From Eledone cirrhosa (taxonomy: Eukaryota), in contig OZ024741.1 of assembly GCA_964016885.1 (NCBI GenBank), positions 24,738,001 through 24,802,000 on the forward strand: a stretch of 64,000 bases of DNA. The letters are read 5' to 3'. The position numbers and the translations under genes were made by a program. The number at the start of each line of letters is the position of its first letter. Within the stretch, counting starts at the first letter, position 1. Positions 24,001-33,000 of the stretch are shown here, piece after piece. The notes below the pieces were generated by a model that was given only the letters and a program-made list of their open reading frames with translations, had not been told where the DNA came from and ran no database searches.

Positions 24001-27000
24001 TTCCTCTTAAATCCAGCTTCTCCCTTAGTTCATCCAAGCTCTGCCTTTATCTCACACTTACATTGCACATCCAATGAAGCATAGTTGCTTCATTTCTGTC
24101 CAGTCTACGCATGTTTTCTGTAGAGTAACTAAAGACCAGCCTAGAAGTCACTGATATACACATATACACACATGCTCACACATATATACCTATATATATA
24201 TACTCAAAGCTATTGTAAAGAAATGATCCAATTGCTAATTGTTACCATATTTTCCCAGTTGAAGATCTCTCAAATTCTCTGTACCATATATAAAGGAACC
24301 ATCCAAGAATGACGTCACTTCATTCAGTTGTTCTCCTGTCAAAGACAACAGCAACAATAACAGAAAACTGCATGTTGGGACATTTATATATTTACTCAGA
24401 ATGTAAAGGGACATAACAATATGCTGCAAAGCATGTCTGATGTTCTACTGATTGTGAATCCACTGCCCTTAATAATGGTTTCTAATTTAGCCAACAATTT
24501 GTGGGGAGGGGAAAGTCAATTACATCAACTCTAGTTTGTGACTGGTGCTTGATTTATTTTACCCTGATAAGATGAAAGACAAAGCTAAATTTGGTGGGAT
24601 TTGAACTCAGAATATAAAAGAACTTTTTATGCCAATCAGCCAACTAAAACAATACAAGGTGTGTAAGACCAATGATACAAATTAAAAGTACCCAACAAAT
24701 AGTTGTTAATATTAAACCATGTGGTGTTGTTATGTTTATCATCTGTACGAAACCTTGTACAAAACAATTCTACAATTTACCCTCACCCTCTCCACATCTC
24801 TTAGGCTCACACTTTACCTACAAGAATCCTCTAAGTTGAACTCTGGAACAGACTTTAATCCCAGCAATATGGAAGGTACTACAATAACACAATGGATAAG
24901 CCCCCCCCCCCCCTCCCCACACACACACACACATCTGTATTAAATATCTTTAAACAATAATTAATACTATGTATTATTAATGTGTGTTAAGCCTACTACA
25001 TAATGGCATTGAAGAAAGGAACACAGGAAGTAGTCCCGATGGTATGTTAAACTTACTAATAAGGGAGATAACCATGGTGGTATGTTAGACTTACTACTTA
25101 GGAGAGATAACCTTGATGGTATGTTAAACTTACTACCCAAACTAAAAGACCCCTAAGGATCAAATGGTGGTGTCAAATGAGGTGGTATGTTAAACTTATC
25201 ACTAAACCAAACTAAAAGACCCCTAAGGATCAAATGGTGGTGTCAAATGAGGTGATATGTTAAACTTATCAATAAACCAAATTAAATTCATTGAAGAAGT
25301 TTAAAGATACAAAACGTTTACTTACGTCTGTTGCTGGTAAATTGTGACTTTGTGGATCTGACAAGATTTATACAAGACTGCATACATGGTAGTTTATTGA
25401 GGTATTTATAGTGTTTAAGGTAATTGGGTTTAGAAGAATAAGGGTATTGATAGGTCTGAGGGTAGTAGGAGTTAGAATCATAAGAGTGTATATAGTGTGG
25501 AAGTGAATAGGGTATAGAATTGTAAGGAAGTTTTCCAGGCAATGAAGACTTAATGGGATAAGTATTAAAATGATATTTGTCAAAGTTGTGGAAATGTTGA
25601 TGAGGTTTAGAATAAGCAGATCTCTTATTGCGAGTATAGTACTGATCATTGGAACTGTAAAGTTTTTCATAGTCAGGAATATAGTGAGACTCAGAATAGA
25701 AGGGATCTGTATTTTGTTGAAGGTAATCAGGTTCATAATAGCCTGGATAATTTGGATAATAGGAGGGTTTATAAGGGTAGGGGTCTGTATAGTGTGGGGA
25801 TAAATGTGAGTGGATGTGTGATTTTTGATGTGATAAATCTGAGTGAGAAGTAGACAAGTGTGCCTGACTGGAGTGTGAGTCAGCATGAGATGAGAGTGAT
25901 TGAGCCTTGAATGTGTGGGAGTGAGAGTGGGATAAGTGTGAGAGTGCCTTCAATGAATGTGAGTGAAAGTGAGATGAGTGTGAATGTGCCTTGGATGAGT
26001 GAGAGTGAGATGCATGTGTGTGGCTATCTGATGCATGGTTTAGAGTATGGCTGTCACTAGGATAATATTGACCACTGCCGGGGTTTCCAGGGAGAGAGTG
26101 GTCATTGTGGGGGTGTCCAGGGAGGTAGTGACCCTTGTGGGGGTAGTGTGGAAGGTAATGACCATTGTGGTGTTTACTTAGAATGTGATGCTGCACTCCA
26201 GTGGAGTGTGAGTGTGATTGAGACGAGTGTGAGTGGGATTGAGCTGAGTGTGATTGAGCTGAGTGTGAGTGAGATAAGTGTGCCCTAGATAAGTGTGACT
26301 TAGATGAGTGTGAGTGAGAGAAGTGTGTGTGAGATGAGTGTGCCTTGCTGTGTGAAGTGTGACTTTGAGCAAGAGATGAGTGTAAGTGGCTGTGTAATGC
26401 ATGTTTTAGAGTGTGGGGGTGTTCAAAGAGGTAGTGACCCTTGTGGGGGAGTCCATGGAGGTAGTGGCCATTGTGGGGGTGTCCAGGTAGGTAGTGGTCA
26501 TTGTGGGGGTGTCCAGGGAGGTAGTGACCCTTGTGGGGGAGTCCAGAGAGGTAGTGCCCATTGTGGGGGTGTTCAAAGAAGTAGTGACCCTTGTGGGGGA
26601 GTCCATGGAGGTAGTGGCCATTGTGGGGGTGTCCAGGTAGGTAGTGGTCATTGTGGGGGTGTCCAGGGAGGTAGTGACCCTTGTGGGGGAGTCCAGAGAG
26701 GTAGTGCCCATTGTGGGGGTGTTCAAAGAAGTAGTGACCGTTGTGGGGGAGTCCATGGAGGTAGTGGCCATTGTGGGGGTGTCCAGGTAGGTAGTGGTCA
26801 TTGTGGGGGTGTCCAGGGAGGTAGTGACCATTGTGGTGTTTACTTAGAGTGTGATGCTTCACTCCAATCGAATGTGACAAGTGTGAGTGTGTCTGAGACG
26901 AGTGGGAATGAGAGTGAGATGAGTGTGAGTGTGAGTGAGATGCATGTGTGTGGCTATGTAATGCATGTTTCAGAGTGTGACTGGGGGGGTGTCCAGGGAG

Positions 27001-30000: not shown

Positions 30001-33000
30001 TTGAGTGTGATGCTGCCCTCCAGTAAAGTGTGATAAGTGTGAGTGTGACTGGGATGAGTGTGAATGAGATGAGTGTTTCTGGGATGAGTGTACCTGGGAT
30101 AAGTGTGCCTTGGCTGAGTGTGTCTGAGATGAGTGTGAGTGAGAGTGAGATGAGTGTGATTGTTTGTGTGATGTATGACTTAGAGTGTGACTGGGATGAT
30201 AATGGTCATTATAGAAATTGTCACTAGAAGGGTATCCAGTTAGGTAGTGGTGATTGTAGTGATATTGTGGTAAGTAGTGGTCATAGTAGTGCTGGTCAGA
30301 TTGGTAGTCTTTATAGTAGGGTTGTGTGAAAGAAAGTTTGCCATCGTAGTGTGGTGCATAGTAGTGATGGTCAAGATAGAGGTCATTTTTGTGAATGGGA
30401 GGATAAGGAAGATAACGATATTTCAGGTAGGATTGAGGGATGCCGTAATGTACATAGGGGTGACCAGTACATTTGTCCAGGTGACAGTGGCTGCTGTGGA
30501 TTATAGGGAAACATGTTGACTGATTATTCCTGGAAATAGAAGATATAAAAGTAAAAGAGATGGAAAAATGTAGAAAATATACAAAATTTTAAAAAATTGT
30601 ATCTTTTTCATAAAATTGTAGAAATCTCAGCACCACAGTGGGTAGCTGTAAACAATTGATTACTATATCTCTCTCTCTCTCTCTCTCTCTCTATATATAT
30701 ATATATATATATATATATATATATATATATATATATATATATATATATATATAGAGAGAGAGAGAGAGAGAGAGAGAGAAAGGTTGTGAGTTCAATTCTC
30801 AGACCAGGTGATGTGTTGTTTCCTTGAGCAAGATACTTTATTTCACATTGCTCCAGTTTACTCAGCTGTAGAATGAGAGGATAGGGACTGGTGTCCCTTT
30901 CATTCCACTGCAGAGTGGACGTGGAGGCACCACAGAAAAAAAGTACCCACCACTCATTGTAAATGAGGTTCATGTTAGGAAGGGCATCCAGCTGTAGAAA
31001 ACCTGCCAGAATCAGTTCCCGTGCACCCTTGCAAGCAGGGAAAAGCGGATGTAAAATGATAGAGCTTTGTTTGACAACCTTATAAGAAAGTTGTACACCA
31101 CCACCATCCCCACTACCATCATCACCATCACCACCACCATCATCATCACCACCACATTCACCACAACAAGAATGTACCTGGGTATTGAACACATACCTTA
31201 AAGATGTTTCACAACAATTAATATCTGTGGAGAGAAAGAAAAACATATTTTATACATTTGAAGAAAATATTGAACTCTTTTTAAAAAAGATTGTGATACT
31301 TATTGATTTTATTTAAATTTATTTATCAAAGTTGTATTTGGTTAGACACGTGATCAGTCGTTATATATTGAAACTGAAACATATACATACATATATGTAT
31401 ATACATATTTATATGTGTATATATATATATATATATATATATATATATATATATATATATATGTATGTATATATATATATATATTGTTATACTTTGGGAG
31501 GGTCATGTTGCCAATAAGAAACAAAATATATATATATATATATTCAGTAGGCATCTCTAACAAAATACACCCCCGTCCCACCCCATCCACACCGCCCCCT
31601 TCAATGCAAAGTTATGTTGGTGCCACAACATCCAGGCCGAAACAAATGAGGTCGTGTAGGTGTCACGACAAAAAAACACACAGTCCACGCTGTAATGTGG
31701 CCGTGTAGGCAACACGGTAAAAACCTCCCAGCCCCACACTGTAAATGTGGTTGGTGTTAGGAAGGGCATCCAGCTGTAGAAAACCCGCCAGACAGTCCTA
31801 TGCGAGCAAGACAACCACTCTTGCCTCAAGTGGGAAAACCCCCGTCCAAACCCATGCAAGCGTGGAACAGGGACGTTAAACGATGATGATGATGATGATG
31901 ATGATATATATATATATATATATATATATATAAAGGCGCATGACTGTGTGGTTAGAGAATTGGATTCACAACCATGCTTTGGATTCCCTGACAGGGTGAT
32001 TCGTTATGTCCTTGAGCAAGGCACTTTATTTCACATTGCTCCTTCTCCCTGGATTTGCGACCGACAGATAGAATTAGCAATTGGAAAGAGCAATAGATAT
32101 ATTTTTTCCTCAGTCTGATTTTACAGGCTCCACCTCACTCGTTAAGTGAATGAGGTCTGGTATCTTTTCGACCGACTGTTGATATATATATATGTATGTA
32201 TATTCATAGATATATATATACAATTATACATACATATATGTATATATACATATAAATACATGATGATGTCTGCCCCTTCATTATCTAGTATGGCCATTGC
32301 ACGATATAACATTATTAATAATGTTATATCGTGGGCGGTGAATTGGCAGTATCGGTAGAGGGTTGGACGCCATGCTTTGATGCATAGAGTTATGGCCCTT
32401 GCCATTCTGAGTTCAAATCCCGCCTAGTTTAACTTTGCCTTTCATCCTTACGGGGTTGATAAAATAAAGTACCAGTAATGCACTGGAATAATTGCTGGCC
32501 TTGTGCCAAAAGTAGAAATAATTATTAATAATTATCGATTAATGTATTGTGCAATTCCTGTGCATGATGATTTTTTTTAAAGTGAGGAAAGACTGTCTGT
32601 GCACTGAGCCAATCCCACTCTCTGAGCGACAGTAGCTATAAACCGAAAACAAGAAAAGATCAGTATCATCAGTAACTACTGACCCGCAGGTTTTATGTCG
32701 GAGTTATCCCAGTTTCCTGAGTTACCTTCTTCTAGAAGAATGCCCTGACAAAGGCTAGGGGTCCTTCACTCCCAGTAGTTTAACCGCCGATGGGGTATCC
32801 AGCCTGATTATTTCTAGGTCCCCGCGCATATATACACATATGTACACATGTATATACATACTTACATACATATATAAATACATATATACATACATACATA
32901 CATACATACATGGTGGCTGCCAACTCGTTTTCGAGTACGGCCACTACTTTATATCCATGTAGGAGAACCCCTACTGATGCGCTGAACGAGTGTGACTTTT

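What the first reader, a model, noticed from the sequence alone, without database searches (positions are those of the whole stretch)
25326..30529. A ~1,700-aa histidine-rich block copolymer inserted inside a peroxidase fold
Seen: the His-rich ORF is not a stand-alone gene. It is one 5,204-bp exon whose ends encode STCFPII and CINLVRS, flanked by ordinary peroxidase exons in matching phase. Known: in myeloperoxidase-family proteins CFP and CIPFFRS are separated by a surface loop of ~14 residues. Here the loop is ~1,709 aa of His/Ser/Pro/Gly/Tyr repeats with no stop. His-rich Gly/Tyr repeat proteins form or harden invertebrate biomaterials (squid beak histidine-rich proteins coacervate and cross-link to catechols; Nereis jaw protein binds Zn). 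Inference: this is a secreted structural or metal-binding protein that uses a peroxidase fold as a scaffold, possibly for beak, radula, sucker cuticle, egg casing or mucus. I do not recognise this architecture as described.
Basis: partly seen in the sequence, partly recalled or inferred. Interest (0 to 1): 0.92.

Follow-up and report, generated by a model that had tools for sequence, protein, structure and literature searches.

The report
Histidine-rich polymer inside disabled octopus peroxidase
An octopus gene has stretched one small surface loop of a peroxidase enzyme into a 1,700-residue histidine-rich repeat polymer while losing the enzyme's key catalytic residues, and its counterpart in another octopus is switched on in the egg-cement gland at egg laying, which makes it a testable candidate for the glue that holds octopus egg strings.

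Summary
Confirmed. Window 30529-25326 (minus) is one 5,204-bp GT-AG exon, in phase with ten other peroxidase exons; it puts 1,710 aa (27% His) between CFP and CINLVRS, where the sister paralogue's same exon is 107 bp with a 16-aa loop. The architecture is conserved: an Octopus bimaculoides RefSeq model (XP_052826901.1, 'uncharacterized') has a 765-aa His/Tyr insert at the same site with different repeats. New here: (1) the fold looks catalytically disabled (distal His to Asn, proximal His to Tyr, both heme-ester residues and the proximal Asn lost); (2) the insert carries RxKR convertase sites in both species; (3) qPCR primers that a published O. maya study used for 'chorion peroxidase' encode this gene's exons (peptide PFNAKC, exact 116-bp spacing), so the orthologue is transcribed in the oviducal gland and peaks at fertilization/egg laying; (4) an inverted twin gene lacks 4,548 bp of the repeats. 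Best reading: a secreted structural precursor of egg cement or coat, not a beak protein. No transcript across the big exon and no protein evidence were seen. Not found described in ten literature searches.

The parts
25326..30529 (-). Copy A giant exon, 5,204 bp, phase 2 in / phase 1 out; [10 protein letters not shown] ... [16 protein letters not shown]
25375..30504 (-). 1,710-aa insert (about 194.5 kDa, 456 His, 156 Tyr, pI 9.1): alternating ([10 protein letters not shown])n and His/Ser ([13 protein letters not shown]) blocks between Tyr/Pro-rich unique ends; Cys at insert positions 7, 12, 1707 are shared with O. bimaculoides
28534..29433 (-). Longest decapeptide block, 30 x [14 protein letters not shown] units
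27484..27864 (-). Longest His/Ser/Ala block, (SHAHSHS)n-type, 21-bp unit
25621..25632 (-). RNKR, the only R-x-[KR]-R convertase-type site of the insert (O. bimaculoides has three RYKR)
   Evidence: cleavage itself is inferred
36176..36333 (-). Copy A exon a (RTANGTCNN; start of Pfam PF03098)
35782..35961 (-). Copy A exon b; FFSQAISND, distal His replaced by Asn (35812-35810), first ester Asp by Ser
31197..31224 (-). Copy A 28-nt micro-exon (INCCETSL), carries the two Cys that should clamp the loop
   Evidence: counterpart in the paralogue
24246..24335 (-). Copy A exon e ([13 protein letters not shown])
23060..23167 (-). Copy A exon e2 ([14 protein letters not shown]...PFPCLKT)
16182..16427 (-). 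Copy A exon f; GDERSNNN, distal Arg kept, second ester Glu replaced by Asn
11506..12025 (-). Copy A exon g; RFGY, proximal His replaced by Tyr (11960-11958); [11 protein letters not shown], proximal Asn replaced by Tyr. Exons h-j lie outside the window at G000:C2:24655852-24653219
39103..39159 (-). Candidate signal-peptide exon ([21 protein letters not shown] with an ATG-AA exon end at 43582-43578); needs a GC donor; unverified
   Evidence: read by eye
57428..58083 (+). Copy B loop exon, 656 bp, 194-aa insert; lacks 4,548 bp (in frame) of copy A, keeps both Tyr-rich ends and RNKR
53548..63421 (+). Copy B exons a (53548-53705), b (53923-54102), micro (56776-56803), e (59077-59166), e2 (60245-60352), f (63176-63421); inverted twin, 3 differences in 1,330 exon bases compared; g-i lie beyond the window, last exon not found

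Best explanation
A secreted, probably heme-free peroxidase-fold protein that octopods use as a carrier for a structural polymer, most likely a component of the egg cement or egg coat made by the oviducal gland. History (well supported): a duplicate of the octopus 'chorion peroxidase-like' gene expanded one surface loop inside an existing exon, and lost catalytic residues stepwise. Working model (inferred): the two halves of the fold close around the loop and disulfides clamp its base, which gives a folded, secretable head to a disordered cationic tail; in acidic granules the His-rich tail is highly charged (about +420 at pH 5.5) and soluble or complexed with the gland's sulfated polysaccharide; a convertase may cut at RxKR; on release into seawater the charge falls (about +30 at pH 8.1), His binds metal ions, the chains condense, and Tyr residues may be cross-linked by an intact peroxidase.
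For: Shown: same loop exon, 107 bp, same phases and same upstream CC micro-exon in the paralogue at G000:C2:51.71 Mb; tree places this gene + O. bimaculoides orthologue (SH-aLRT 100) as sister to that paralogue group (88, weak). Orthologue XP_052826901.1 has a 765-aa His/Tyr/Ser/Pro insert at the same site; peroxidase parts 377 of 539 identical. Residues, lactoperoxidase numbering: D108S, H109N, E258N, H351Y, N437Y here; D108S, E258S, N437F, R440K in O. bimaculoides; the 46 other rows keep H109 in 43, H351 in 40, N437 in 40, E258 in 35, D108 in 33 (defining residues from PMC4420034 passages). MPO disulfides C281-C291 and C285-C309 bracket this loop (PMC5437232 passages) and the four Cys are kept. 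The O. maya primers translate to AYHDGY and PFNAKC; PFNAKC occurs in 1 of 277 fetched proteins (the orthologue), and the spacing gives 116 bp on both the orthologue and this window's spliced exons a+b, equal to the published 116. That transcript is up in fertilized females, down in senescence, qPCR P=0.0161. The gland makes and polymerises the cement from mucoprotein and sulfated polysaccharide (citing Froesch and Marthy 1975, not seen by me). A convertase and a dual oxidase are among the same study's top stage-dependent genes. Charges.
Against: The 116-bp amplicon covers exons a-b only: it does not show the big exon in the transcript. The O. maya study looked at one organ, so other tissues are not excluded, and no expression data exist for this species. 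The O. bimaculoides model is a prediction whose RNA support I could not see; the older UniProt model of that gene (A0A0L8IF09) omits the exon. O. bimaculoides keeps both His and the distal Arg, so its copy may still bind heme. Egg threads and cases of O. bimaculoides are at least 80% octovafibrin, an EGF-repeat protein (PMC10336842 passages), so this protein is not their main fibre; the cement stalk was not analysed in the passages read. The signal peptide is only a candidate. The twin copy B has lost most repeats with no other damage in the exons compared, so the long polymer is not needed in every copy. Synonymous excess in the repeats not significant.
Confidence: 0.55

Rival explanations
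1. An enzyme fused to its own substrate: the fold still binds heme (His-ligated in Octopus, perhaps Tyr-ligated here) and cross-links its Tyr-rich tail or the egg envelope with H2O2 from a dual oxidase.
For: O. bimaculoides keeps Q105, H109, R255, H351; the fold is conserved at 70% between the two species; the O. maya authors read the transcript as a chorion-hardening peroxidase; DUOX2 among stage-dependent genes.
Against: In this species both catalytic His are gone in both copies; the proximal Asn and both ester residues are lost in both species; the authors' label rests on a BLAST hit of E=3.4e-9.
Confidence: 0.15
2. A general octopod sclerotisation or cuticle protein (beak, radula, sucker cuticle), the oviducal expression being one site among several.
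For: His/Gly/Tyr/Pro composition like squid beak proteins; squid-type histidine-rich beak proteins and suckerins were not found in O. bimaculoides (PMC9068888 passages), so octopods need some other material.
Against: No GHGxY or GGY motif in either insert; the only expression evidence found is oviducal and stage-specific.
Confidence: 0.15
3. An egg-defence precursor: convertase releases cationic His-rich pieces that kill microbes or sequester Zn/Cu/heme on the brooded eggs.
For: Net positive charge at all pH values computed, RxKR sites; GHPH recurs 38 times and recalls the GHHPH repeat of vertebrate histidine-rich glycoprotein (recalled, not from a call).
Against: Predicted pieces are large (139 to over 1,700 aa), not short peptides; long block architecture is more typical of materials; GHHPH itself occurs 0 times.
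Confidence: 0.1
4. The repeats are a satellite in a decaying gene or are spliced out; no such protein is made.
For: No transcript across the exon seen; the 30-bp unit is open in three frames; copy B lacks the repeats; catalytic residues lost.
Against: One frame only is stop-free over 5.2 kb; 78 of 78 units in frame; skipping the exon would shift the frame (phase 2/1); none of 92 internal GT sites scores 5-6 of 6 on a crude donor score and internal acceptors are T-poor (but real donors score 3-6); an independent expansion sits at the same site in another genus.
Confidence: 0.05

Closest known systems
Peroxidase-cyclooxygenase superfamily (PF03098), family 1-3 type: lactoperoxidase, myeloperoxidase, invertebrate peroxinectin / 'chorion peroxidase-like' (O. 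sinensis XP_029641804.1)
   Same: Fold by sequence (orthologue E=4e-118 to PF03098; E=8e-60 to lactoperoxidase), Ca-loop TSFLDGS, cysteine frame, exon structure shared with the paralogue.
   Different: 15-16-aa loop replaced by 194-1,710 aa; heme ligand, distal His, ester residues and proximal Asn lost here.
O. bimaculoides LOC128248768 / XP_052826901.1 (uncharacterized, predicted)
   Same: Orthologue; same insertion site, same Cys-bearing insert ends, His/Tyr/Ser/Pro composition, RxKR sites.
   Different: 765-aa insert with other repeats (HHGPKYY-type), three RYKR, both His kept; model lacks its N-terminus. No paper names it.
Dual oxidase peroxidase-homology domain (known pseudo-peroxidase; PMC4420034 passages)
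   Same: Same fold without proximal His and without peroxidase activity.
   Different: Membrane oxidase ectodomain; no repeat insert.
Squid histidine-rich beak proteins DgHBP-1/2 and suckerins (PMC11931252 passages)
   Same: His-rich block design; suckerins also alternate His-rich and Gly-rich modules; pH-triggered condensation is the model borrowed here.
   Different: HBPs are 15-18 kDa, pI about 6, GHGxY repeats, with no enzyme fold mentioned in the passages read; this insert is 195 kDa, pI 9, with no GHGxY or GGY, and sits inside a globular domain.
Octovafibrin, O. bimaculoides egg thread protein (PMC10336842)
   Same: Octopus egg-attachment material.
   Different: EGF repeats with C-type lectin ends; builds threads and case, not the green cement stalk.

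Membership tests
Peroxidase-cyclooxygenase superfamily (fold/homology) | PF03098 match above cut-off | tested here: met
   Exons a, f, g, h score over the 25-bit cut-off; orthologue 395.7 bits. The giant exon alone has no Pfam match.
Active heme peroxidase of that superfamily | Distal motif G-Q-x-x-D-H-D with catalytic His | tested here: not met
   S-Q-A-I-S-N-D in both copies; O. bimaculoides has S-H-D.
Active heme peroxidase of that superfamily | Distal R-x-x-E (catalytic Arg, ester Glu) | tested here: not met
   Arg kept, Glu replaced by Asn (Ser in O. bimaculoides).
Active heme peroxidase of that superfamily | Proximal His hydrogen-bonded to Asn | tested here: not met
   His to Tyr and Asn to Tyr here; His kept but Asn to Phe in O. 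bimaculoides.
Active heme peroxidase of that superfamily | Calcium site (Asp after distal His; TSFLD.S loop) | tested here: met
   D110 and TSFLDGS kept.
Active heme peroxidase of that superfamily | Heme binding and H2O2 turnover | not testable with these tools
   Needs recombinant protein.
Squid histidine-rich beak proteins (HBP) | GHGxY pentapeptide repeats | tested here: not met
   0 in either insert; motif from PMC11931252 passages.
Squid histidine-rich beak proteins (HBP) | Buccal-mass expression; self-coacervation near pH 8 | not testable with these tools
   No tissue data for this gene outside the oviducal gland.
Suckerins | Gly/Tyr-rich M2 modules (GGY, recalled) alternating with His-rich M1 modules | tested here: not met
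   GGY 0 in either insert; block alternation present.
Vertebrate histidine-rich glycoprotein | GHHPH repeats with cystatin domains (recalled) | tested here: not met
   GHHPH 0, GHPH 38; no cystatin Pfam match.
Octopod oviducal-gland cement protein | Transcribed in the gland at egg laying | tested here: met
   For the O. maya orthologue, exons a-b only; not for this species.
Octopod oviducal-gland cement protein | Present in the secretion and in the cured cement | not testable with these tools
   No cement proteome found.

The most novel reading that the evidence does not exclude
Octopods built their egg cement by turning a peroxidase into a dead, disulfide-clamped scaffold that displays a species-tuned His/Tyr block copolymer from one loop: a structural protein class in which a former cross-linking enzyme has become the cross-linked material, curing by complexation with sulfated polysaccharide and the pH jump into seawater. 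This would name the long-unidentified cement 'mucoprotein' of the oviducal gland.
Probability: 0.4. Interest if true: 0.88.

Novelty: new variant of a known kind. Interest (0 to 1): 0.76.

Why it matters
The cement that glues octopus egg strings under water is described as a mucoprotein set by a sulfated polysaccharide, but I found no paper naming the protein; the fibre of the threads is known and is something else. This gene gives a specific candidate with diagnostic peptides, predicted cleavage sites and a pH/metal curing model, all testable on egg stalks that are easy to collect. It also corrects the reading of a published marker: the O. maya 'chorion peroxidase' is this gene, not a canonical enzyme. 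For protein evolution it is a clean case of a loop growing about a hundredfold inside one ancestral exon, with different repeats in two lineages, stepwise loss of catalysis, and a natural short-loop twin as a built-in control.

Tried and rejected
Sequencing runs: no RNA holder listed; three runs of one sample and unknown kind hold 0.73-0.77 of the words and may be the assembly's own data. No reads were laid on the exon, so read support for the assembly and the junctions is open. Word-index protein searches were insensitive: one search missed the 63%-identical orthologue; two searches found no further octopus, squid or cuttlefish orthologue (lengths 711-2,265 and 249-793 aa; best 120 of 1,056 listed), so range beyond octopods is not settled; the HMMER search of 50% representatives gave 1 hit under 1e-30 among 327. 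No structure was predicted: the alignment made for it put the N-terminal half of the fold onto the repeats, and the two-chain job was not run. ESM Atlas: best score 0.83, uninformative. Exon b alone found no peroxidase in the PDB; the distal motif was mapped through the paralogue. The tree is the quick one, with long branches and compositional outliers including both query rows. First selection test (13 of 20 vs 20 of 67) chose units by protein motif and is biased; the frame-blind repeat is the one reported. Loop survey: 221 motif-matched domains in 172 of 277 fetched proteins, median Cys-to-Cys distance 23, 13 over 40; of the 11 over 60 that were printed, 10 look like regex mis-pairings by eye (not checked by alignment); only the orthologue, 1 of 277, had 14 or more His in 100 residues. 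Earlier scan notes: nothing. O. vulgaris ink proteome passages name other peroxidases and no histidine-rich protein. Idea that copy B is only a collapsed assembly of A: disfavoured by a point difference at the junction, different intron insertions and 86-92% identity at the far end, not excluded; B ends near an assembly gap and its last exon is found once in the genome, in A.
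Full report
OBSERVATION. The window is from a 3.0-Gb animal genome; its peroxidases are 57-70% identical to Octopus proteins, so it is an octopod some way from Octopus itself (inference). A 1,756-codon frame lies at 25318-30588 minus. Its exon is bounded by ttccag|G at 30529 and AGAC|gtaagt at 25326: 5,204 bp, phase 2 in, phase 1 out. 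With a 28-nt micro-exon upstream and exon e downstream, 11 exons splice by GT-AG into 2,293 aa with one terminal stop; the last three lie 82-85 kb left of the window, across an intron of about 94 kb. Between CFP and the Cys of CINLVRS lie 1,710 aa: His 26.7, Ser 15.0, Pro 9.8, Leu 9.2, Tyr 9.1, Gly 8.5%, in alternating ([10 protein letters not shown])n blocks (65 units by protein motif) and His/Ser blocks (about 490 aa), between non-repetitive Tyr/Pro-rich ends. The other five frames carry 19-298 stops; 78 of 78 units picked on DNA alone are in the coding frame, 77 of 77 spacings are multiples of 3, 0 of 3 possible stop variants occur in that frame against 5 of 5 in another. The synonymous test was not significant (p=0.10), and the unit itself is open in three frames.

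ORIGIN. The genome's 'chorion peroxidase-like' gene on the same contig (C2:51.64-51.72 Mb) has the same loop exon, 107 bp, with the same phases and its own CC micro-exon. So the giant exon is an ancestral exon that grew from within, not a fused gene. A quick tree of 48 rows puts this gene with its O. bimaculoides orthologue (100) as sister to that paralogue group (88; long branches, weak).

CONSERVATION. A HMMER search with exon g found one close hit among 327, O. bimaculoides A0A0L8IF09, whose cluster holds the 1,294-aa RefSeq model XP_052826901.1, 'uncharacterized'. That model has [15 protein letters not shown], a 765-aa insert (His 17, Tyr 16, Ser 13, Pro 11%), then [12 protein letters not shown]. 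Only the insert's ends align (63% over 35 aa, 68% over 28 aa); the repeats differ. Composition, three extra Cys and RxKR sites (one RNKR here, three RYKR there) are shared. No other cephalopod orthologue turned up, but those searches were insensitive. Of 277 fetched proteins only the orthologue is His-rich.

CATALYSIS. The family signature is G-Q-x-x-D-H-D, R-x-x-E and a proximal His bonded to Asn (PMC4420034, passages). Mapped to lactoperoxidase through the paralogue, this gene reads D108S, H109N, E258N, H351Y, N437Y, with Q105, D110 and R255 kept. O. bimaculoides keeps both His but has D108S, E258S, N437F, R440K. The paralogue differs only at D108. In the 46 other rows H109 is kept in 43, H351 in 40. 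The fold is under constraint (377 of 539 identical between species), yet peroxidase chemistry is very unlikely here (inference). In myeloperoxidase the bonds C281-C291 and C285-C309 bracket this loop and a neighbouring hexapeptide is excised in maturation (PMC5437232, passages); the four Cys are kept, so the insert should be a clamped surface loop and cleavage would leave the halves linked (inference; no model was computed).

EXPRESSION. An O. maya oviducal-gland study (PMC8976471; read: passages, section 16 part 1 of 2, sections 17 and 20, supplement 2, a search of all 5 supplements; figures not seen) followed a transcript labelled chorion peroxidase on a BLAST hit of E=3.4e-9. Its primers translate to AYHDGY and PFNAKC. 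PFNAKC is found in 1 of 277 fetched proteins, the orthologue; the spacing predicts 116 bp from the orthologue and 116 bp on this window's spliced exons a+b (15 of 20 matches each, the forward primer across the junction), equal to the published size; the paralogue gives at best 12 and 11 of 20. The transcript rises in fertilized females and falls in senescence (qPCR P=0.0161). The gland makes the cement that binds egg strings, from mucoprotein and sulfated polysaccharide (citing Froesch and Marthy 1975, which I did not see). Limits: exons a-b only, one organ, another species, and it could come from a short-loop copy.

THE TWIN. An inverted copy B faces away across 44010-45453. It differs at 3 of 1,330 exon bases compared, shares all catalytic losses, and lacks 4,548 bp of the insert in frame, keeping the Tyr-rich ends and RNKR. 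Because O. bimaculoides shares His/Ser blocks with A, B's short state looks derived (inference). B's last exon is not found; an assembly gap follows.

MECHANISM. Shown: anatomy, conservation, residue losses, oviducal transcription of the orthologue's 5' exons. Inferred: secretion (candidate signal peptide needing a GC donor; the paralogue has a hydrophobic N-terminus); convertase cleavage; a charge switch from about +420 at pH 5.5 to +30 at pH 8.1 (O. bimaculoides +177 to +61) that would favour complexation with sulfated polysaccharide and setting in seawater, with His-metal and Tyr cross-links. I put egg cement or coat component at 0.55; enzyme fused to its substrate 0.15; beak or cuticle protein 0.15; egg defence 0.10; no such protein 0.05. 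Against the lead: threads and egg cases are at least 80% octovafibrin (PMC10336842; read part 1 of 6 and passages); the green cement stalk is only mentioned there.

COMPARISON AND NOVELTY. By homology it belongs to PF03098; by defining residues it fails as an active peroxidase. It works, if the model holds, like squid beak proteins or suckerins (PMC11931252, passages), but has no GHGxY or GGY, and those families were not found in O. bimaculoides (PMC9068888, passages). Ten searches of the held library (listings and abstract starts, seven papers opened) found no description of a repeat polymer inside a peroxidase fold and no mention of the orthologue's identifiers; subscription journals and bioRxiv supplements were not covered. 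The labels for histidine-rich glycoprotein and suckerin GGY motifs are recalled. Verdict: real, conserved, annotated only as 'uncharacterized'; a new variant of known kinds, with a concrete and testable link to octopus egg cement. Interest 0.76.

Noticed in passing
window 44010-45453 (centre); arms 10700-44010 and 45453-64000 and beyond: Head-to-head inverted gene pair. Identity falls from about 99% near the centre to 95-97% further out and 86-92% at the far end, as gene conversion in a palindrome would give.
   Followed up: partly
L022:3050-3779 (G000:C2:24815050-24815779): In copy B the acceptor of exon i is duplicated in a 45-bp tandem array that stays in frame (QLKSIIISTSSLFSD, 14 times); use of an upstream acceptor would add a second repeat insert.
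   Followed up: no
L022:8174-8373: 200-N assembly gap about 4.4 kb after copy B exon i; the last exon is found only once in the genome, in copy A.
   Followed up: partly
window 38-8650 and 10700-11351: 22-bp satellite, about 368 copies, inside the long intron between exons g and h; it yields many spurious long ORFs.
   Followed up: no
window 39218-39959 and 49504-50677: 48-bp tandem array (15.5 and 24.5 copies) with a long open frame, ending about 60 bases before the candidate signal-peptide exon in both arms.
   Followed up: no
window 8664-10115, 20170-21347, 38152-38937, 50890-51465: Fragments of a reverse-transcriptase retroelement (YADD motif; LINE label recalled, not from a call).
   Followed up: no
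window 17464-20000 (minus) and 61014-61712: Broken ORFs of a second mobile element, longer in arm A than in arm B (Penelope-like by recall only).
   Followed up: no
G000:C2:51712393-51712499 (L030): The paralogue's own 16-aa loop reads YLHLHIT, already His/Tyr/Leu-rich, a possible seed of the expansion; suggestive only.
   Followed up: no
P0004 and P0154: Both public models of the O. bimaculoides gene are incomplete: the UniProt one starts in the intron after the giant exon, the RefSeq one lacks exon a and a signal peptide.
   Followed up: partly
G000 contigs C2, C5, C15, C17, C26, C913: 53 PF03098 exon matches, with several peroxidase genes on C17; their loops were not inspected, but the copy B loop exon matched only copies A and B.
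   Followed up: partly
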